From the UHGV virus genome UHGV-0200630: a stretch of DNA of 20,449 nucleotides; one strand, written 5' to 3'. How positions within the stretch are numbered: position 1 is the stretch's first letter; the number at the start of each line of letters is the position of its first letter. This DNA comes from a virus. Below are positions 1 through 20,449 of this stretch, piece after piece. The notes beneath the pieces are model-generated. The model was not told the origin of the DNA. It saw only the letters and a program-made list of their open reading frames with translations, and searched no databases. Both the position numbers and the translations under genes were made by a program.

Positions 1-78
1 TGGTTTGGCGATTGATCAGATCGCACAATCCGGGCTGAGTTCCCTTTCAGTGATCTACTATTCCGCGCAGCTATTTAG
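1..78. repeat. Left terminal inverted repeat (78 bp), exact reverse complement of 20371-20448
   Basis: Read directly: reverse complement of 20371-20448 equals 1-78 base for base; identity breaks at position 79. Contains three GATC sites (14-17, 19-22, 52-55) and begins 5'-TG. Confidence 0.95.
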
Positions 79-1266: not shown

Positions 1267-1463
1267 TAGTTCACTCCTGACATCAGAAGCGTCCCAAATG
1301 TTTTTATCTGTTCTTCGCTGATAAGAATCATTTTAGGTGCTTTAATATCGAAAGCTTGCAGAACAGGAACAGCAACAGTGTTATAAGTTATAGTAACGAG
1401 AAATAGAACAATAAGATAATCTTTAGCGTGTTTTGCCAATGCTTGGAGATATTTCATTTTCAT
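1266..1463 (-). CDS. Small single-pass membrane protein (65 aa), possible lysis-associated (holin-like) protein
   Basis: ATG at 1463-1461 with AGGTGA SD; one hydrophobic helix (DYLIVLFLVTITYNTVAVPVL); overlaps the 3' end of the endonuclease VII gene by 41 nt. Real coding status uncertain. Confidence 0.4.
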   Translation of the reverse strand: MKMKYLQALAKHAKDYLIVLFLVTITYNTVAVPVLQAFDIKAPKMILISEEQIKTFGTLLMSGVN

Positions 1464-1899
1464 ATTTCACCTTTATTTGGTTTGAGTAGACTTTTTCAAG
1501 CTCCTTTTTCGTTTTAAGGTTTGAACCTGTAATAGCTTTCATCTCAGAAAGATTTTTTCGAGAGAACGCCTTCTTTAAATCAGGAATAAGTTGTGGATGC
1601 GTAGGATTGTCTGAGTAGTCTTTTTCAAGATACTGAACAAGATTCTTCAAAAACTCGATGTAGTCAATTTTCCCATCGAGACCCGAACGTTTAAACTGAT
1701 GTTTTATTCTGCCCTCTAGGACGTTTGCTTGAGCGATTAATAATCCTCTGCATCTGCCTGCGTTAGAGCCTGTTAATATATGGTCATGGTCAAGATGGGC
1801 TTTATTAACTTCATGAATCTTTATGCCAGTTAAAGCACAAAGACCTTTTTGCTTTTGAAAGAGTTCTTGCTTATAAATCGGAATCTCTTTTCTTTTCAT
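1423..1899 (-). CDS. Endonuclease VII-like Holliday junction / branched-DNA resolvase (T4 gp49 family), 158 aa
   Basis: Translation contains HLDHDH, GLL..N..EG, KHQFKRSGL.GK.DY.EFL.NL..YL..DY and FSR...SEM, matching T4 endonuclease VII as I recall it. ATGA overlap with upstream gene; AAGAGGA SD. Confidence 0.85.
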   Translation of the reverse strand: MKRKEIPIYKQELFQKQKGLCALTGIKIHEVNKAHLDHDHILTGSNAGRCRGLLIAQANVLEGRIKHQFKRSGLDGKIDYIEFLKNLVQYLEKDYSDNPTHPQLIPDLKKAFSRKNLSEMKAITGSNLKTKKELEKVYSNQIKVKYENEISPSIGKTR

Positions 1900-6388: not shown

Positions 6389-6865
6389 TTAATCACTTGA
6401 TGTCAAATCAACAACACCAGAAACAACAGGACCACCATCAACACTCAGTGTCATTGTCAGACCTTGAACTTCTGATTCACCGCCATTATGAACAGCGCTT
6501 GACAAGAAGCCGTTATAAACTTTTGCAACACCCAGTTTTTTAGTAGCATCAATCCAATAAACGATTTTAAACTGACCACGTTTACCATCTTCCGCAAGCT
6601 TAATCAGAACATCATGAACGCTTTCTGGAATATAGTTAACGGTCAAGTCGATATCAGGAACAGAGCCACGACCAACCAGTTTACGGGAGTATTTGTGAGA
6701 GAAGTTAGGAGCTGTAATAACTTCGCGTTCAATACCCGTAGAAGGGAATGCACCAGTTTCAGGAATTTCAACAAACTTTTCTGAATTCAGATCGGTGTTT
6801 GCAATTTCTGAGTTATAGAACACACTGACGTAAGAGCCAGCAAAAATATCAAATTTGTCTGCCAT
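6389..6865 (-). CDS. Putative abundant virion structural protein (158 aa), possibly tail tube/distal tail-like
   Basis: Isolated between two hairpins (6904-6926 and 6363-6386), suggesting separate high expression; AGGAAA SD. Gly/Val/Ser-rich sequence that I read as beta-rich. Family not recognised from sequence alone. Confidence 0.6.
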   Translation of the reverse strand: MADKFDIFAGSYVSVFYNSEIANTDLNSEKFVEIPETGAFPSTGIEREVITAPNFSHKYSRKLVGRGSVPDIDLTVNYIPESVHDVLIKLAEDGKRGQFKIVYWIDATKKLGVAKVYNGFLSSAVHNGGESEVQGLTMTLSVDGGPVVSGVVDLTSSD

Positions 6866-6903: not shown

Positions 6904-6926
6904 AAAGGGGATTTCTCCCCTTTTTG
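6904..6926 (+). terminator. Hairpin with T-tract on plus strand (antisense to operon) between fiber gene and 158-aa gene
   Basis: GGGGA (6907-6911) / TCCCC (6916-6920), loop TTTC, followed by TTTTTG on plus strand; only UUUGC on minus strand. Confidence 0.4.
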
Positions 6927-9900
6927 TTATTTAGCTTCAAGTTCTTTAACGCGAGCACTTAATTCCTTGATAGCATTAACCAGCAACGCGTTTACAGCAG
7001 CAGAGTTAACACCAAGAATTTCGTCAGGTCCGAAAGAACTAACAGCTTCTGGTAATACTTCTTTCAGTTCTTGAGCAATAATACCTGCTTCACGAACTTC
7101 GAATGAATATTCAGTTTTGACTAAATCAGATTTCTTATCGTATACGTAACCAGTAAGTTTCTCGACTTTATCAACTGCGTTTTCAATTTCTTCAAAGTTC
7201 GATTTCAGACGTTTATCAGAAGTGCTAACCCATTGGATCGCATTTGCTGTTCCATTACCGAGGAATAGATAGTCTGCACCACCAATGTGAAGTGCAGCCT
7301 CGGGAGCAGAACTACCCGGATTATAAATGTCCATCGCAGCACCGTATTCTGTGCCCCAATGAACATGTTTCCAGATATTAATACATTTATCACGAGTCTG
7401 AGCTTCAACAATCATTCCCGCAGGACGATCACGCCACGCTGACCACTGCGGCCAACCGTCAACGACACCTTGAATCATCGCATTGCTTGCCCCGGTTCTA
7501 ACGTTTCCAACATAAACACCGCGAGACTCATTATGGGTGTTAATCGTAATTGACCGATCAATTGTCAAACCAGCTGTGTTAAAGGTTGCGATTTGAATAC
7601 CATTAGTAAAAATGCTTAAGTTTCCGTCCGTAACTTGTCGAATACCTGTATCGTTATCACCAAACGCGATTGAGTTTCCACCTAGTACGTTGTCCGTGTT
7701 AATACCAAAACTTGTTAAACGATTTGTTTCAACAGAAGGAGTATTAATTTTTCCAGGAACAGCAAAACGACCATCGATATCAAATTCATAATTAGCCATT
7801 TTACCGAACGTCGATTCTTCTTTCGTCCCAACACGAAGAATTCCTTTGCCCCATGAATTAGCTGGTCCTCTAATAGTTCCTAATTCAACAACAGTAGAGA
7901 ATCCGTGTCCTACGGAAACAGAGTTCATCGAATATCCGGGATAATAATCACTTTCACCAGCAACTGCTCCGAAGTTAATCTGCATAGGAGCATTTTGTCT
8001 CCATTGATTAGCGTAAGCATGATCATTGGTTGCTGCCCATCTTGCACCATCAATTTGAATTGTATTATGCTGAATATCCATCGCGGTATTAGTACCAGTC
8101 TGAACCGTCACGGATCCGTTAGTTCTAAGAGTAACACCAGATGACGTAGAGAAATCATTTCTCATATTCTGAGACCAGACAATATCGAGATTCTCACTTG
8201 TCTTGCCAAGAATCCAGGTATTATTGCGACCGTCCATATTGCCAGACATATAACTTGCCTGATTCGACGCAGGAATATTCAACTGAATAGCATTAGATTC
8301 GCCGTTGACAGAAACACCACTTGCAAGATTCAATCGACCATTGGTGTTTAATGAACCCATCCAATATTCAGGAGTATCACCATGAAACCAACATATAGAG
8401 TTATCCAGCCTATCGTCAGGATGATTAGCCATTGCCAACTCATGATAAATGGATCCAGCACCAACGGCTCTAACTTTTCTTAAATGATTTGATTGTTGCT
8501 CAGGAGTGTTCCAGTCGGGTAAGCTTTCCGAGTCATACCATCCGTAAGGCTTATTATTATAAATCGTTTTATAGAAACTTGCAGGGCCAGCAACACCAAG
8601 ACCTTCTTTAGTATCAATATAAGTTCTGCCTGAACCTCTCAGATAATGATTATATTTTCCACCATTAACTAATCCGAAATAAGTCGTGGCGTCACCAATG
8701 TTATTACCGTCGGTTGTCGTATCGATATTAATTAATGAATAACCTTCAGGAGCCATCAGATTCGAATCACCATCATCACTTCTGAAACGGAAATGAGTTT
8801 TTCTATTAAAGTAGTTTTCAGATCCTGCAATAGAAGCTGTTACAACGTTATTTGAATAGAAGTTTAACCATCCGTCTTCTCTCCATTTAAAACCAGTGTC
8901 GGAATCACCAATCGCGATAGAGTTTAAACCCAGTGAATTTCCAACGGCAAAGTTGCTTGCAACGGACATTAAAGGAGTTGTTACTGCATCAGTGATTCTA
9001 GCTTGACCTGAAATATCAATTGACATTCCTCTGCCTGTTTTTCCCCAAGTCATGGTCATTAGATCTAATGCGTCGGTTCCTTCGTTAGCATCACGACGAA
9101 ATAACAGTCGATCATCCGTATCCGTTGCGTATGCAATTTGATGAATAGTCTTTGAAGTTCTGCCGTGGTTTTCAATACTCAGAACATCACCGTTATTACC
9201 AGCAGGTGTAACTTTCAAAGTTCCTGCGTATACATTACCAGCAGCATGAACAGAAGGAACAGTTAAGTCGCCAGTCATCGTGTCGCCAGCTTTATTAACT
9301 TTGGTGTCAATCATGTCTTTCAGAGTCTGATTATCAACAGTCAAACGGTCATTAACTGCTTTAATCTTTTCGTCAGCATCAGCTTTATTCGCATCAACTT
9401 TCGTATTAATAGCCGTGTCGTTCTGGTCAACTTTTGAATTCAGATTATCAACGCGAGTGTTAATAGCAGCGTCGTTAGCATCAACTTTCTGTTCGAGTTT
9501 CGTCAGGTCAGCACTTGAACCTGTTTGAACTTTGCTGATTTCAGAATCAACGTAATCTTTACGCGTAGCGCTATCAGGAGCAACAGGAGCAGCAGGCAAA
9601 GATAACTGACCATTACCGTTAAGCACGAAGTCAGAACTCTCTCCTGTAGCTTTTCCTTTCGCTACCGTAACACGAAGTTCACCTTTAGAGTCTGTCTGAG
9701 CAGGAGAACTAATACGTGCTTTTGCTTTGTCGTGTTCATCAGCAAAAACAATATCGCTTTTATCAAGATTTTTTAAAGTCAGATTAGAATCGGATTCAAT
9801 ATCACTTGCTTTAATTTTTCCAGTAAAGGTCTGACCGCCTTCAACAACAGCATCAGCACCATTACCGATGTTAATAACAGCGTCACCGAATTTAGTAAAA

Positions 9901-10010
9901 ATCTTTTTATCGGCTAAGTTAATAGCGATTTCACCATCAAGCATGTTTTTCGCTTCTGGCTTTCTTCCGGCGACGTCTGTTCTATAATGTTTAACTTTAT
10001 TATTTGCCAT
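6927..10010 (-). CDS. Tail fiber protein with C-terminal intramolecular chaperone / Peptidase S74 autoproteolytic domain (1027 aa)
   Basis: C-terminal ~97 aa (SDKRLKSN...GIIAQELKEVLPEAV...LVNAIKELSARVKELE) match the S74 intramolecular chaperone domain of endosialidases and L-shaped tail fibers. Upstream KAGDTMTGDLTV fiber motif and Asn/Asp-rich repeats. Weak SD; start probably coupled to upstream gene. Confidence 0.85.
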   Translation of the reverse strand: MANNKVKHYRTDVAGRKPEAKNMLDGEIAINLADKKIFTKFGDAVINIGNGADAVVEGGQTFTGKIKASDIESDSNLTLKNLDKSDIVFADEHDKAKARISSPAQTDSKGELRVTVAKGKATGESSDFVLNGNGQLSLPAAPVAPDSATRKDYVDSEISKVQTGSSADLTKLEQKVDANDAAINTRVDNLNSKVDQNDTAINTKVDANKADADEKIKAVNDRLTVDNQTLKDMIDTKVNKAGDTMTGDLTVPSVHAAGNVYAGTLKVTPAGNNGDVLSIENHGRTSKTIHQIAYATDTDDRLLFRRDANEGTDALDLMTMTWGKTGRGMSIDISGQARITDAVTTPLMSVASNFAVGNSLGLNSIAIGDSDTGFKWREDGWLNFYSNNVVTASIAGSENYFNRKTHFRFRSDDGDSNLMAPEGYSLINIDTTTDGNNIGDATTYFGLVNGGKYNHYLRGSGRTYIDTKEGLGVAGPASFYKTIYNNKPYGWYDSESLPDWNTPEQQSNHLRKVRAVGAGSIYHELAMANHPDDRLDNSICWFHGDTPEYWMGSLNTNGRLNLASGVSVNGESNAIQLNIPASNQASYMSGNMDGRNNTWILGKTSENLDIVWSQNMRNDFSTSSGVTLRTNGSVTVQTGTNTAMDIQHNTIQIDGARWAATNDHAYANQWRQNAPMQINFGAVAGESDYYPGYSMNSVSVGHGFSTVVELGTIRGPANSWGKGILRVGTKEESTFGKMANYEFDIDGRFAVPGKINTPSVETNRLTSFGINTDNVLGGNSIAFGDNDTGIRQVTDGNLSIFTNGIQIATFNTAGLTIDRSITINTHNESRGVYVGNVRTGASNAMIQGVVDGWPQWSAWRDRPAGMIVEAQTRDKCINIWKHVHWGTEYGAAMDIYNPGSSAPEAALHIGGADYLFLGNGTANAIQWVSTSDKRLKSNFEEIENAVDKVEKLTGYVYDKKSDLVKTEYSFEVREAGIIAQELKEVLPEAVSSFGPDEILGVNSAAVNALLVNAIKELSARVKELEAK

Positions 10011-10022
10011 TTTCTTTATCCG

Positions 10023-11048
10023 TTAAAATACTCCTGCGTCTAAGGTTTCTCCTAACGCTACACAATTAATCTCTAATGGCGTTGGTTTATTACTTGGAGA
10101 ATAGACTTCTTTGCCTTTGACCTTGACAGAAGTTGAGTTAATTTCATTACTATTTAGAGCCAAGATTTCACCTTGTGGCGCAGAAATCTTTTTACGAACG
10201 TTCAGATATTCCTGAATAGTCAAAGATCCTTTGAGTTCTCCACCAGTAATAGGCAAAGCATTAATATCTTCAGGAGTTGGACGTTCAAGTTCTGTATAGA
10301 CTTTGACCCACGGAGATTCAGTAACAGTTTCACCGCTTTGTTGTTTGTTTCTGATTCTGATGCTTGGATTACCGACTGACGAACCAATAAGCTCCCAACC
10401 TTGACCATCAGGATGCTGAATAGCCATAGCAGACGTGCCAGAGTTATAAGGGTTATCGCTGTTTGTTGCATCGACTGTTACACATCTGTTACCAGTTAAT
10501 AATCCTAAGTCTTTAACGCCTGCGATTTCTTCTGTACCAGCACCAATACCATAATCGCCAACGTTTAACGGAACTGAGAATTCAGCAAAACCTGTAAACA
10601 ACTGACCATCAGGAGAAAGATTAAAAGTTGTTGTAACGACTGAGTTAGCCGAACCTGATGTTTCTTTCTTCGTTACATAAGCATTAAAAATATGATAAAG
10701 ACCAGCATCATTATCTTTCTTTGTTTCTCCATCGATAACATAAAGACTTCTGAATCTAAGGAGTTTCTTTTCCATAAGAGCTTCATCAAGCAACTGATAA
10801 ACTGGGTCAGAACTGTCTTCAAATAAGCTTATTGAAGTGTCGTTAATTGTTACGTCACCTGAAAGTTTCGTTGTGAAATCGGTTCTGTAATCTTCTAGTG
10901 TCTGAACTTCTTTTCTAAATCCGATAACAGGGAATGCAGCCAGTTTATCAGTGCTTACATAACCTGGGTCGTTATATCCTGGGATTTCAACGATTAGCGG
11001 ATTAACTGAAACTCTGACGTTATTTCCTACAAAAATATCGTTTGTCAT
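10023..11048 (-). CDS. Virion structural protein (341 aa), possibly major tail or fiber-associated protein
   Basis: Long ORF in the structural block, 7 nt downstream of the preceding stop. N-terminal half has a pattern reminiscent of major tail proteins; C-terminal part (PTPEDINALPITGGELKGSLTI) resembles fiber attachment regions. Family unresolved. Confidence 0.65.
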   Translation of the reverse strand: MTNDIFVGNNVRVSVNPLIVEIPGYNDPGYVSTDKLAAFPVIGFRKEVQTLEDYRTDFTTKLSGDVTINDTSISLFEDSSDPVYQLLDEALMEKKLLRFRSLYVIDGETKKDNDAGLYHIFNAYVTKKETSGSANSVVTTTFNLSPDGQLFTGFAEFSVPLNVGDYGIGAGTEEIAGVKDLGLLTGNRCVTVDATNSDNPYNSGTSAMAIQHPDGQGWELIGSSVGNPSIRIRNKQQSGETVTESPWVKVYTELERPTPEDINALPITGGELKGSLTIQEYLNVRKKISAPQGEILALNSNEINSTSVKVKGKEVYSPSNKPTPLEINCVALGETLDAGVF

Positions 11049-11854: not shown

Positions 11855-12067
11855 TTAGGCTTGTTTTTCGTGCAGGAACAGACGATCATCAGCACAAACT
11901 TTCCAATCGATATCAGCCCAAACGCGAGGAACGATAGCGCCTTTGTTACGGTAAGTTGTGTCGTCTAGGTCAAGAGCAAGACCTTCCCACTCAGCTACGG
12001 TTACAGCAGAGAAGTCACCAGAGATAACCTGACCTTCTTTAACAAGACCGGAACCGATAAACATCAT
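11855..12067 (-). CDS. Small capsid-associated ORF (70 aa) overlapping the capsid gene 3' end in the +1 frame; separate protein or frameshift extension
   Basis: ATGATG at 12067-12062 lies 29 nt inside the capsid ORF in the +1 frame; only a weak GGGCGGA SD. Shares the terminator at 11778-11803 with the capsid gene. Confidence 0.45.
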   Translation of the reverse strand: MMFIGSGLVKEGQVISGDFSAVTVAEWEGLALDLDDTTYRNKGAIVPRVWADIDWKVCADDRLFLHEKQA

Positions 12068-13760
12068 GTCCGCCCAGTTTGTTCAGGTCGTCGATGATAT
12101 AACCAGCAACACCAGCGTCACGCAGAGTGGTTTTCAAATCACCTTCAAGAGCAGCAGCCATCAAATATTTGAACTTGTCCATTGCTACGCCGTCGCCTTT
12201 AGCTTTAGCAGCTTCAACAACGAATTCTTTGTAGGTCATTCCCATCTGTTTTGCTACTAACTGAGCAACGATAGACTGAGGAGCTTTTGCGTCGGTAATA
12301 GAACCGAACATCAGACCTTCCAGTTTAGCGCGTGAGAAATTCACGATATGGTCAGAAATGAACGCACCCAGATTAGGCAGAGTCAACAGAGCTTGACGAG
12401 AAATCGGGTTACCACCAGTAAATGTCTTAGGCATAAACTGAATGTTTTCGAATTTGCTTTCGCCTTCTGGAGATTCACCGTTTTCATCAACGAAACCGAA
12501 TGCATCAACACTTGATTTTGTCTGCTTAGGAACAGAAATCGGAGTAGTCAGACCAGTCAGGAAGTTAACTCCCAGCTTATCAGCAACAGTGTCTTTCAAC
12601 AGCATTTCAACGAATGAATCATAACGCTGAACAGTTTCTTGTACTGCGGAAACAGTTGATACAGTGTTAATAGCGCGTTTGCCTTGCAGAGCACTAACTG
12701 GCATATAGATACCTTGAGAAACGTTAGCACCGCGCATCAGACGCTTACGGGACATTTCTTGAGTATATTCAGCAGCAGCACCGCGAACAGCTTTACCATT
12801 CATCATAGAGCGAACAGCATCGCCAAGGTCGAATTTATTTTCCAGAGTTTGTTTAGTATCTTTAGTCATGTTGCGAATCACCGTTGCAGATTTATTAGGT
12901 TTAATAGAGCGTTTGAATTGACGTGCGGTCATGCCTTTAGCGATAGCGCTTGCAACGTCTTTCTGTGCTACTTTGTAGCGTTGTGCGATTTCAAGAATTT
13001 CTTCCGCTTCTTCTTCGCGTTCTTCTTCTGTCAGTTCGTCACCAGCAGGAACAGCAGCAGGAGCGTCATCAGTTTTTTCAACAGCAGAATCACCAGCGTT
13101 TTCATTTTCAACGACTACTTCTTCCAGAATTTCTTCACGCTTTGCACGATCTTCATCGGACAGCATTTCAATTTCATCGATAGTCATTTCTGCCAGTTCA
13201 TCTTTAGTCATTTCATCAATACGTTTCATTCGAGTACCTTTGTTAAGTTTGTTTGTTGTATCTGTATTTAGTAGTCTTCCCAAACCGACTTTATCGTCAG
13301 CAGGAACAGTGACGAAAGAAATTTCATATGGTGCCCATTTCGTAACAATAAGATTGTCGCCTTCTAAGTGATATTCATTAATGTCATATCCGAAAGAGAT
13401 TTTACTAATTGTTCCTTCTTGAACTTTTGCACCGATTTCTTTAGCTAATTCACCGTGTTGACTGAATTGGACTTTTGCTCGTCCTATTTTGTCTTCATCG
13501 ATTCGAACAGAATCAGGAATAACGATTCCCAAGTGTTTATCAAAATCATGGTTAAACAGCAAAGCAGCACCGTTATTAATTCGGGTCAAGTCAGCGTTAT
13601 GTGAGCCGTCATGAACGAGAATTTCATTAACAGTAATGTTTTGACCGTATTCATCCTGAATCTGTCTTTCAACAGGAGTTTCAGAACTGAACGCAATTTC
13701 AAAAACACCATCAACAGAATCAATACCCTGAACTGTGTAATCGCGCTTAAGTTTTAGCAT
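12039..13760 (-). CDS. Prohead protease (HK97 gp4 / Peptidase S78-like) fused to scaffold-like acidic linker and putative HK97-fold major capsid domain (573 aa)
   Basis: N-terminal ~170 aa carry protease-like motifs (LLFNHD....GIV, ISFGY). Residues ~180-270 are an acidic, helical Glu-rich linker (delta/scaffold-like). C-terminal ~300 aa are of capsid-domain size, directly after portal and before a strong terminator. AGAGGA SD. Confidence 0.75.
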   Translation of the reverse strand: MLKLKRDYTVQGIDSVDGVFEIAFSSETPVERQIQDEYGQNITVNEILVHDGSHNADLTRINNGAALLFNHDFDKHLGIVIPDSVRIDEDKIGRAKVQFSQHGELAKEIGAKVQEGTISKISFGYDINEYHLEGDNLIVTKWAPYEISFVTVPADDKVGLGRLLNTDTTNKLNKGTRMKRIDEMTKDELAEMTIDEIEMLSDEDRAKREEILEEVVVENENAGDSAVEKTDDAPAAVPAGDELTEEEREEEAEEILEIAQRYKVAQKDVASAIAKGMTARQFKRSIKPNKSATVIRNMTKDTKQTLENKFDLGDAVRSMMNGKAVRGAAAEYTQEMSRKRLMRGANVSQGIYMPVSALQGKRAINTVSTVSAVQETVQRYDSFVEMLLKDTVADKLGVNFLTGLTTPISVPKQTKSSVDAFGFVDENGESPEGESKFENIQFMPKTFTGGNPISRQALLTLPNLGAFISDHIVNFSRAKLEGLMFGSITDAKAPQSIVAQLVAKQMGMTYKEFVVEAAKAKGDGVAMDKFKYLMAAALEGDLKTTLRDAGVAGYIIDDLNKLGGHDVYRFRSC

Positions 13761-19937: not shown

Positions 19938-20391
19938 ATTGAATTTCAAATTTGCAGTCTTCGAAAATCTAGACAGAACAGTTAAAGCAAGCCTGAACAG
20001 AAATATTATCAAAGTTAATAGAATGACCAATAACAAAAACAGCCTGAAAGCTCTTGTTAAAGCTATAGATATTCATCGTAATGTTCGAGCTAAGATGTTA
20101 CAGAAGATTGAAAATGCTGTGACTGTAAAAAATATGCATAGCTTCGAAATCGGTACGACCGAAGTTAATAATCTGCCTGCAATCGTTGCTTATACAACCG
20201 ATAATGCTGTTATCGTTGCTTGTGAAATTAACGGTAAAAAGAACTCGTGGAAAGCTTTCTGTTCAGATCTAAGAATGCAGAAGATCAAAGACACCGAGCA
20301 GTTTGTTCAGATGTATACTGGTGAATTTATTGAAATCATCGAAAGTATTGAATTTCCGACTGAGCAGAGACTAAATAGCTGCGCGGAATAG
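19885..20391 (+). CDS. Hypothetical protein (up to 168 aa; start ambiguous: ATG 19885, TTG 19939 or ATG 20023)
   Basis: Long ORF in the +1 frame relative to the 52-aa HTH ORF, overlapping it. None of the candidate starts has a strong SD. Stop codon TAG at 20389-20391 lies inside the right ITR. Family not recognised. Confidence 0.45.
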   Translation: MLAKNVISELNQSIKANKLNFKFAVFENLDRTVKASLNRNIIKVNRMTNNKNSLKALVKAIDIHRNVRAKMLQKIENAVTVKNMHSFEIGTTEVNNLPAIVAYTTDNAVIVACEINGKKNSWKAFCSDLRMQKIKDTEQFVQMYTGEFIEIIESIEFPTEQRLNSCAE

Positions 20392-20448
20392 TAGATCACT
20401 GAAAGGGAACTCAGCCCGGATTGTGCGATCTGATCAATCGCCAAACCA
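20371..20448. repeat. Right terminal inverted repeat (78 bp), reverse complement of 1-78
   Basis: Read directly; one extra base (a, 20449) beyond the repeat at the right end. Confidence 0.95.
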
Positions 20449-20449
20449 A

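What the first reader, a model, noticed from the sequence alone, without database searches (positions are those of the whole stretch)
6927..7220. Tail fiber carries a C-terminal self-cleaving intramolecular chaperone domain; predicted cleavage near Ser931
The last ~97 residues have the hallmark SDKRLK...GIIAQE...LPEAV...AIKEL pattern of the chaperone domain that is autoproteolytically released from endosialidases and L-shaped tail fibers after trimerisation. The mature fiber would then end around residue 930-931.
Basis: partly seen in the sequence, partly recalled or inferred. Interest (0 to 1): 0.45.

Follow-up and report, generated by a model that had tools for sequence, protein, structure and literature searches.

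The report
Self-cleaving chaperone domain on prophage tail fibre

Summary
Confirmed and ordinary. Window 6927-7220 (minus strand) encodes residues 931-1027 plus the stop codon of a 1027-aa tail-fibre ORF (6927-10010).

- **Family match:** Pfam Peptidase_S74 (PF13884) matches residues 931-990 at E=2.1e-14, 54 bits against a cutoff of 22.
- **Catalytic signature:** Ser931 and Lys936 are invariant in 41 aligned homologues. S-D-x3-K is present in all but one fragment of 146 distant relatives, a median 98 residues from the C-terminus.
- **Cleavage site:** By homology with T5 (Thr1263|Ser1264) and S16 gp37 (S|SDRRIK), the predicted cut is Thr930|Ser931. That leaves a 100.3-kDa mature fibre (1-930) and a 10.7-kDa released fragment. 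Cleavage itself is inferred.
- **Context:** The gene is RefSeq WP_001325354.1, "tail fiber domain-containing protein". It sits in a roughly 33-kb prophage between ldtB and ybiT that also carries a retron Ec67-family gene.
- **How common:** About 30,000 cluster representatives carry this domain.

Novelty is nil and interest is low.

The parts
6927..10010 (-). Complete tail-fibre ORF, 1027 aa plus stop (111.1 kDa precursor). RefSeq WP_001325354.1, 'tail fiber domain-containing protein'.
   Evidence: ORF list and translation. PHROG long tail fiber distal subunit families at E 1e-114 and 9e-66. tblastn to T-even gp37 homologues. RefSeq annotation. Mass.
7221..10010 (-). Predicted mature fibre, residues 1-930 (100.3 kDa), ending ...AIQWVST930. 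It has a conserved N-terminal attachment region, a variable shaft and tip, and two GDxDTG fibre-repeat motifs at residues 368 and 784.
   Evidence: Cleavage site inferred from T5 and S16. Per-region conservation. Motifs. Mass.
6930..7220 (-). Intramolecular chaperone (Peptidase S74) domain, residues 931-1027, 97 aa, 10.7 kDa. Predicted to be released after trimerisation.
7203..7220 (-). Catalytic motif S931-D-K-R-L-K936. Ser931 (codon 7218-7220) is the nucleophile and first residue of the released domain. Lys936 (codon 7203-7205) is the general base. The scissile bond is Thr930|Ser931.
   Evidence: Coordinates. Ser, Asp and Lys invariant and Arg934 in at least 90% of aligned homologues. S-D-x3-K in all but one N-terminally truncated fragment of 146 distant relatives. 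Mechanism from PMC4690869, PMC3742443 and PMC7917993.
7041..7220 (-). Stretch matched by the 58-position Pfam PF13884 model (residues 931-990). It includes the predicted beta-hairpin 954-977 and the GIIAQE and LPEAV motifs.
6933..7004 (-). C-terminal long alpha-helix (residues 1003-1026, ...AVNALLVNAIKELSARVKELEA). It corresponds to the central trimeric coiled-coil of solved chaperone domains and lies beyond the Pfam model.

Best explanation
Residues 931-1027 are a canonical C-terminal intramolecular chaperone (Peptidase S74) domain of a prophage side or long tail fibre.

The inferred mechanism is as follows. Three nascent chains are brought into register by the C-terminal domain through its coiled-coil helix (1003-1026) and the beta-hairpin (954-977) that packs against the fibre tip. 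This nucleates folding of the intertwined trimeric tip. Once the tip is correctly folded, Ser931, activated by Lys936, attacks the Thr930-Ser931 peptide bond. The 10.7-kDa chaperone trimer dissociates, leaving a 930-residue mature fibre whose distal tip is unmasked for receptor binding.

Shown here: domain identity, the intact dyad, its position and the predicted fold. Inferred by homology: trimerisation, the cleavage event, the exact bond and tip unmasking.
For: - **Profile match:** Pfam PF13884 at E=2.1e-14, 54 bits against a cutoff of 22, with Ser931 at profile position 1.
- **Solved relatives by sequence:** A profile of 16 homologous C-termini hits S16 gp37 (6f45, E 2e-29), MYRF ICA (7dc3, 2e-10), fibre 8jov (5e-10) and the GA-1 chaperone (3gud). 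The 3gud chain begins exactly at the aligned SDERHK.
- **Dyad conservation:** Ser931, Asp932 and Lys936 are invariant in 18-, 16- and 41-sequence alignments; Arg934 is present in at least 90%. The motif lies 87-116 residues from the C-terminus in the 68 of 75 homologues that carry it C-terminally.
- **Distant relatives:** S-D-x3-K is present in 145 of 146, the exception being a fragment that starts inside the domain. The motif lies a median 98 residues from the end. Thr is the commonest residue at -1, in 56 of the 137 proteins that match the stricter motif pattern.
- **Cleavage chemistry in relatives:** T5 cuts at Thr1263|Ser1264 with Lys1269, S1264A blocks cleavage, and only the cleaved protein competes for the receptor. 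S16 cuts at DLNVS|SDRRIKK. The Ser/Lys dyad is described for the endosialidase and MYRF.
- **Selection:** The chaperone region is the most conserved part of the protein across 21 full-length homologues, at 83% mean identity against 44-62% for shaft and tip. This is consistent with purifying selection on a functional module.
- **No separate chaperone:** No Tfa- or gp38-like family was matched by the ORFs scanned, including both flanking genes. The nearest 'tail assembly chaperone' match is a weak one (E 1.6e-5) about 6.6 kb downstream.
Against: - There is no experimental evidence for cleavage of this protein.
- The oxyanion-stabilising 'sensor' arginine lies about 14 residues upstream of the Ser in T5 (Arg1250). 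It has no obvious counterpart here: no Arg lies between residues 874 and 930, and the nearest are R873 and the conserved WRDRPAG at 859-865. That part of the mechanism could not be checked with a monomer model.
- The prophage may be defective. This window has a 1-nt insertion that splits the protease-capsid gene. Other strains carry IS insertions in the terminase and tail-tip genes. The fibre may therefore not be assembled in this genome.
- The structural evidence rests on a predicted monomer, not a trimer.
Confidence: 0.88

Rival explanations
1. The S74 domain is genuine but is retained in the mature fibre. It would act only as a permanent trimerisation or structural cap, or cleavage would be very inefficient because this subfamily lacks the upstream sensor arginine.
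For: No Arg lies within 56 residues upstream of Ser931, unlike T5 Arg1250. Cleavage has not been observed for this protein.
Against: The Ser/Lys dyad and the Asp and Arg of the SDxRxK motif are fully intact and invariant or nearly so. The -1 residue is Thr, as in T5, where cleavage is proven. In T5, retaining the chaperone blocks receptor competition, so retention would be costly.
Confidence: 0.07
2. The domain is a relic in a decaying, non-inducible prophage. The gene is intact, but in this genome the fibre is never assembled into particles, so the chaperone has no current role. This does not exclude the main explanation of what the domain is.
For: A 1-nt insertion near window 12059 splits the 634-aa protease-capsid gene into 573- and 70-aa ORFs, relative to the Logan contig and RefSeq. 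IS3 and IS5 insertions interrupt the terminase and the tail-tip gene in the two closest RefSeq genomes.
Against: The fibre ORF is full length and is annotated as the same WP_001325354.1 protein in two independent strains. It differs by 2 aa from the Logan copy, with neither change in the chaperone. The insertion may be a sequencing or assembly error. Close homologues at 61-77% identity are widespread in Citrobacter and E. coli, with the chaperone 94-99% conserved.
Confidence: 0.3
3. The resemblance is a chance or low-complexity (coiled-coil) match and the C-terminus is not an S74 domain.
For: The last roughly 25 residues form a generic amphipathic helix. Weak spurious coiled-coil Pfam hits (CCDC138, bpMoxR) appear at E above 0.2.
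Confidence: 0.01

Closest known systems
[quoted passage not shown]
   Different: The T5 chaperone is 133 residues with long beta-hairpin 'tentacles'; this one is 97 residues. Sequence identity is only 11%, and T5 was not found by sequence search. The T5 sensor Arg1250 has no evident counterpart here. The mature tips are unrelated.
Salmonella phage S16 / T2-type gp37 distal long-tail-fibre subunit chaperone (PDB 6F45)
   Same: It is the closest solved relative by sequence (profile E 2e-29, aligned over the whole domain). The fibre body also shares T-even gp37 repeats (GDxDTG) and 35-40% identity over parts of the shaft. The S16 cut at S|SDRRIKK aligns with T|SDKRLKS.
   Different: In S16 and T2, release of the 113-residue chaperone exposes a docking face for a separate gp38 adhesin. 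No gp38-like gene was detected here; both flanking genes encode tail-tube-like proteins. The pre-cleavage strand (IQWVST) differs from the S16 type (RDLNVS). Some homologues of this fibre (P0010, P0022, P0023, P0028) do carry the S16-type C-terminus.
Coliphage K1F endosialidase (endoNF) C-terminal intramolecular chaperone domain (PDB 3GW6), the founding member of MEROPS/Pfam S74
   Different: The endosialidase is a tailspike enzyme with a triple beta-helix stalk; this protein is a fibre with no detected enzymatic domain. Sequence identity is 13%.
Bacillus phage GA-1 / phi29 neck appendage protein chaperone (PDB 3GUD, 3SUC)
   Different: It sits on a podovirus appendage with a pectin-lyase-like body. 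It is a shorter, more beta-rich variant.
Eukaryotic MYRF ICA domain (PDB 7DC3)
   Different: In MYRF the domain releases a transcription factor from the ER membrane. It is a eukaryotic co-option with no relation to fibre biology.

Membership tests
Peptidase S74 / intramolecular chaperone (Pfam PF13884) | Significant match to the family profile, above the curated gathering threshold | tested here: met
   54 bits against a cutoff of 22, E=2.1e-14, residues 931-990 aligned to profile positions 1-57 of 58. The precomputed Pfam assignment for the near-identical database protein P0001 (2 aa different) is also PF13884.
Peptidase S74 / intramolecular chaperone (Pfam PF13884) | Catalytic Ser-Lys dyad in an S-D-x3-K motif at the N-terminal boundary of the domain | tested here: met
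   S931-D-K-R-L-K936. Ser, Asp and Lys are invariant in all three alignments. The motif aligns to the S16 SDRRIK, MYRF (S-to-A)DLRAK and GA-1 SDERHK motifs.
Peptidase S74 / intramolecular chaperone (Pfam PF13884) | Located at the extreme C-terminus of a phage fibre or spike protein | tested here: met
   The domain ends at the stop codon. The host protein matches long-tail-fibre PHROGs and T-even gp37. The motif lies a median 98 residues from the C-terminus in distant relatives.
Peptidase S74 / intramolecular chaperone (Pfam PF13884) | Characteristic fold: an alpha/beta body with a beta-hairpin plus a long C-terminal helix that forms the trimeric coiled-coil | tested here: met
Peptidase S74 / intramolecular chaperone (Pfam PF13884) | Upstream arginine from a neighbouring subunit that forms the oxyanion hole and acts as a folding sensor (T5 Arg1250; the endosialidase equivalent) | tested here: inconclusive
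   No Arg lies between residues 874 and 930. Candidates are R873 and the conserved WRDRPAG at 859-865. Testing this needs a trimer model or a structure.
Peptidase S74 / intramolecular chaperone (Pfam PF13884) | Trimerisation-dependent autoproteolytic release of the domain, abolished by Ser-to-Ala substitution | not testable with these tools
   This needs an experiment. It has been shown for T5 pb1 S1264A and reported for S16 gp37.
T2/S16-type gp37-gp38 adhesin system | A separate gp38-like adhesin gene that docks on the tip exposed by chaperone release | tested here: not met
   The gene immediately downstream (6389-6865) matches a major-tail-protein PHROG, not gp38. No gp38- or Tfa-like family was hit among the ORFs scanned. 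The fibre is therefore not filed under this system.

The most novel reading that the evidence does not exclude
This 'T|SDKRLK' subfamily lacks an arginine near the scissile bond. It may therefore stabilise the oxyanion and sense folding with a different residue, for example the conserved His908 or Asp913 of the LH(I/V)GGA(D/N) motif, or the invariant Arg934 inside the chaperone. The near-identical chaperone (94-99% identity) flanking highly divergent tips may also serve, together with the conserved N-terminus, as a recombination handle for swapping receptor-binding cassettes among retron-carrying enterobacterial prophages.
Probability: 0.1. Interest if true: 0.3.

Novelty: already known. Interest (0 to 1): 0.1.

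Why it matters
It matters little beyond correct annotation. Knowing that the mature fibre ends at Thr930 is practically useful for anyone expressing this receptor-binding protein: constructs must include residues 931-1027 to fold, and the purified product will lack them. It also helps in interpreting virion proteomics. The domain is one of the commonest modules on phage receptor-binding proteins, with about 30,000 cluster representatives, and it is already detected automatically in this exact protein. No open question is advanced.

Tried and rejected
- **Nucleotide search:** megablast of the gene against the phage collection found nothing. Only protein-level similarity to T-even gp37 proteins exists.
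- **NCBIfam:** no model matched the fibre or its three neighbours.
- **Sequence search of the PDB:** neither the single sequence nor the profile recovered T5 pb1 or the K1F endosialidase. They appeared only by fold comparison.
- **Longer model:** Foldseek on the 267-residue model gave only weak 3gw6 hits (E about 0.4), because the poorly modelled tip diluted the signal. The shorter 127-residue model resolved this.
- **Fibre without a tape measure:** I considered that the fibre might belong to a phage lacking one. The full prophage has a 799-aa ORF beyond the window, downstream of a weak tail-assembly-chaperone-like ORF. It may be the tape measure but was not tested.
- **gp38/Tfa partner:** I looked for one, which would make this an S16/T2-type system, and found none.
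- **Retron Ec67 prophage literature:** the search returned nothing relevant.

Full report
**Observation**

The interval 6927-7220 lies on the minus strand, inside a 1027-codon ORF (6927..10010). Bases 6927-6929 are the stop codon, 6930-7220 encode residues 931-1027, and 7218-7220 is the Ser931 codon. On the plus strand the interval is full of stops. The window's protein differs from the public protein P0001 by two residues (A52T, V114I), neither in the C-terminal domain.

**Is it more than chance?**

Yes.
- Pfam PF13884 (Peptidase_S74, "Chaperone of endosialidase") matches residues 931-990 at E=2.1e-14, 54 bits against a gathering cutoff of 22. Ser931 aligns to profile position 1.
- The whole protein matches long-tail-fibre distal-subunit PHROGs (E 1e-114 and 9e-66). 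A dozen further fibre PHROGs match only the last roughly 100 residues.
- tblastn finds T-even gp37 proteins, including T2 gp37, aligned through to residue 1027.

**Conservation of the catalytic signature**

- In alignments of 18, 16 and 41 homologues, Ser931, Asp932 and Lys936 are invariant. So are Gly976, Ile978, Ala979, Gln980, Val985 and Pro987. Arg934 is present in at least 90%.
- In 68 of the 75 homologues from the first search, the SDx[RK]xK motif sits 87-116 residues from the C-terminus.
- An exhaustive phmmer search with residues 921-1027 against 1.84 billion cluster representatives found 29,982 proteins at E≤0.001.
- Of the 146 new representatives listed, 137 carry [ST]Dx[RKH]xK, a median 98 residues from the end. 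Eight of the other nine still have S-D-x3-K, and the ninth is a fragment that begins inside the domain. Thr is the commonest residue at -1, in 56 of the 137, as it is here.

**Fold**

- A ColabFold model of residues 901-1027 has mean pLDDT 85.5, and above 90 across most of the domain. It shows a short helix, a beta-hairpin (954-977), small helices and strands, and a long terminal helix at 1003-1026.
- Foldseek on a longer model (residues 761-1027, pLDDT 73.9) also ranks 7dc3 and S16 gp37 (6f45) first.
- By sequence, a profile of 16 C-termini hits 6f45 (E 2e-29), 7dc3, 8jov and 3gud. The crystallised, released GA-1 domain begins exactly at the residue aligned with Ser931.

**Where is the cut?**

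- For T5 pb1, the paper PMC4690869 states that the Thr1263-Ser1264 bond is cleaved and that Ser1264 leaves with the chaperone. Lys1269 activates the Ser, and S1264A blocks processing. Only the processed protein competes for the receptor.
- For S16 gp37, the cut is reported as DLNVS^SDRRIKK.
- The Ser/Lys dyad and a stabilising arginine are described for the endosialidase and MYRF.
- Transposed here, the scissile bond is Thr930|Ser931 with Lys936 as the base. That gives a 930-residue, 100.3-kDa mature fibre and a 97-residue, 10.7-kDa released fragment.
- This is inference by homology.

**One mechanistic element could not be verified**

T5 uses Arg1250, 14 residues upstream of the Ser and contributed by a neighbouring chain, as a folding sensor. 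Here no Arg lies between residues 874 and 930. The nearest are R873 and a conserved WRDRPAG at 859-865. Many relatives have Arg at -1 or an RD pair at about -6, but this subfamily has IQWVST. Only a trimer model or an experiment can say what substitutes for it.

**Context**

- Window 76-20376 is 100% identical to a prophage in the E. coli MS 115-1 chromosome, and in strain 2021CK-01361. In 2021CK-01361 the prophage lies between ldtB and ybiT.
- PGAP names the protein WP_001325354.1, "tail fiber domain-containing protein".
- The element is about 33 kb (a Logan contig of 32.8 kb). It encodes a GpA-type terminase, a portal, an S78 protease-capsid fusion, tube-like proteins, this fibre, a DUF6950 protein, a 1229-aa tail-tip (J-like) protein and endonuclease VII. 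Outside the window it encodes a retron Ec67-family reverse transcriptase, a TIR protein and a serine recombinase.
- No gp38- or Tfa-like partner gene was detected. The fibre therefore looks self-sufficient for folding, like T5 pb1, rather than an S16/T2-type adhesin dock.

**Modularity**

Across 21 full-length homologues (Citrobacter, E. coli), the chaperone is the best-conserved segment at 83% mean identity, and 94-99% in the closest relatives. The N-terminal attachment region follows at 75%, while shaft and tip are at 44-62%. Three homologues keep the N-terminus but carry a different tip plus a different chaperone; two of them (P0010, P0022) carry the S16-like type. This is the familiar mosaic pattern of receptor-binding proteins.

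**Caveat on function in this genome**

The window has a 1-nt insertion near 12059, relative to the Logan contig and RefSeq. It splits the 634-aa protease-capsid gene into 573- and 70-aa ORFs. The two closest RefSeq copies have IS3 or IS5 insertions in the terminase, and one also in the tail-tip gene. The prophage may be decaying. That does not change what the domain is, but it may mean the fibre is not assembled in this host.

**Verdict**

Both the observation and the interpretation are correct, and the cleavage site is refined to Thr930|Ser931. This is a textbook Peptidase S74 intramolecular chaperone. It is already flagged by Pfam for this exact protein in public databases and reflected in the RefSeq name. 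It is not novel and is of low interest.

Noticed in passing
window 76-20376 (whole window); L003, L004: The window is a prophage in the E. coli chromosome, lying between ldtB and ybiT in strain 2021CK-01361. It is 100% identical to strains MS 115-1 and 2021CK-01361. Just outside the window the same element carries a retron Ec67-family reverse transcriptase/endonuclease, a TIR-domain protein and a serine recombinase. From memory, this may correspond to the roughly 34-kb retron-Ec67 element described in 1990; I did not verify that.
   Followed up: partly
window ~12059 (ORFs 12039-13760 and 11855-12067, minus strand): A single extra A, relative to the Logan contig L001 and RefSeq WP_000916040.1, splits the 634-aa S78 prohead-protease/major-capsid fusion gene into 573-aa and 70-aa ORFs. 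It is either a real inactivating frameshift or a sequencing error.
   Followed up: partly
L003 17001-17981 and 29893-30873; L004 17753-18873: In the closest RefSeq genomes the same prophage is interrupted by IS elements. ISEc68 (IS5-like) sits in the tail-tip gene and the terminase in strain 2021CK-01361. An IS3-family element sits in the terminase in MS 115-1. This suggests a decaying element.
   Followed up: no
window 6904-6923: A perfect 8-bp hairpin (AAAGGGGA-GAAA-TCCCCTTT on the coding strand) begins 3 nt after the fibre stop codon. The scan scores it as terminator-like only on the opposite strand, and the T-tail on the coding strand is weak. It may be an attenuator or an mRNA-stabilising element between the fibre gene and the next tail gene.
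   Followed up: partly
window 10023-11048 and 6389-6865 (minus strand): Two paralogous tail-tube-like proteins (341 aa and 158 aa, both hitting phrog_158 'major tail protein') flank the fibre gene. The 341-aa protein has a C-terminal extension with weak tail-fibre similarity. No tape-measure gene lies between the tube genes and the J-like gene. The only candidate is a 799-aa ORF beyond the window end, giving an unusual tail-module order.
   Followed up: partly
L002 (Escherichia phage DCP80, PQ671644.1, 4802-36026): The best phage-database relative of the 1229-aa tail-tip protein (45% identity, followed by endonuclease VII in the same order) lies in a 141-kb record classified as Straboviridae/Gaprivervirus. 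That record also carries motA and ndd. It is either a mosaic phage or a chimeric assembly.
   Followed up: no
window 1-75 and 20377-20449: The extreme ends of the window do not align with the prophage in the RefSeq genomes or the Logan contig. Short matches to the window (1% coverage, position within the query not determined) fall next to IS630, IS5 and IS1 transposases in other genomes, which may indicate IS-related or junction sequence at the ends.
   Followed up: no
window 1423-1899 (minus strand): A T4-type recombination endonuclease VII gene (Pfam PF02945, phrog_423 at E 4e-36) is embedded among the tail genes, directly downstream of the J-like gene.
   Followed up: no
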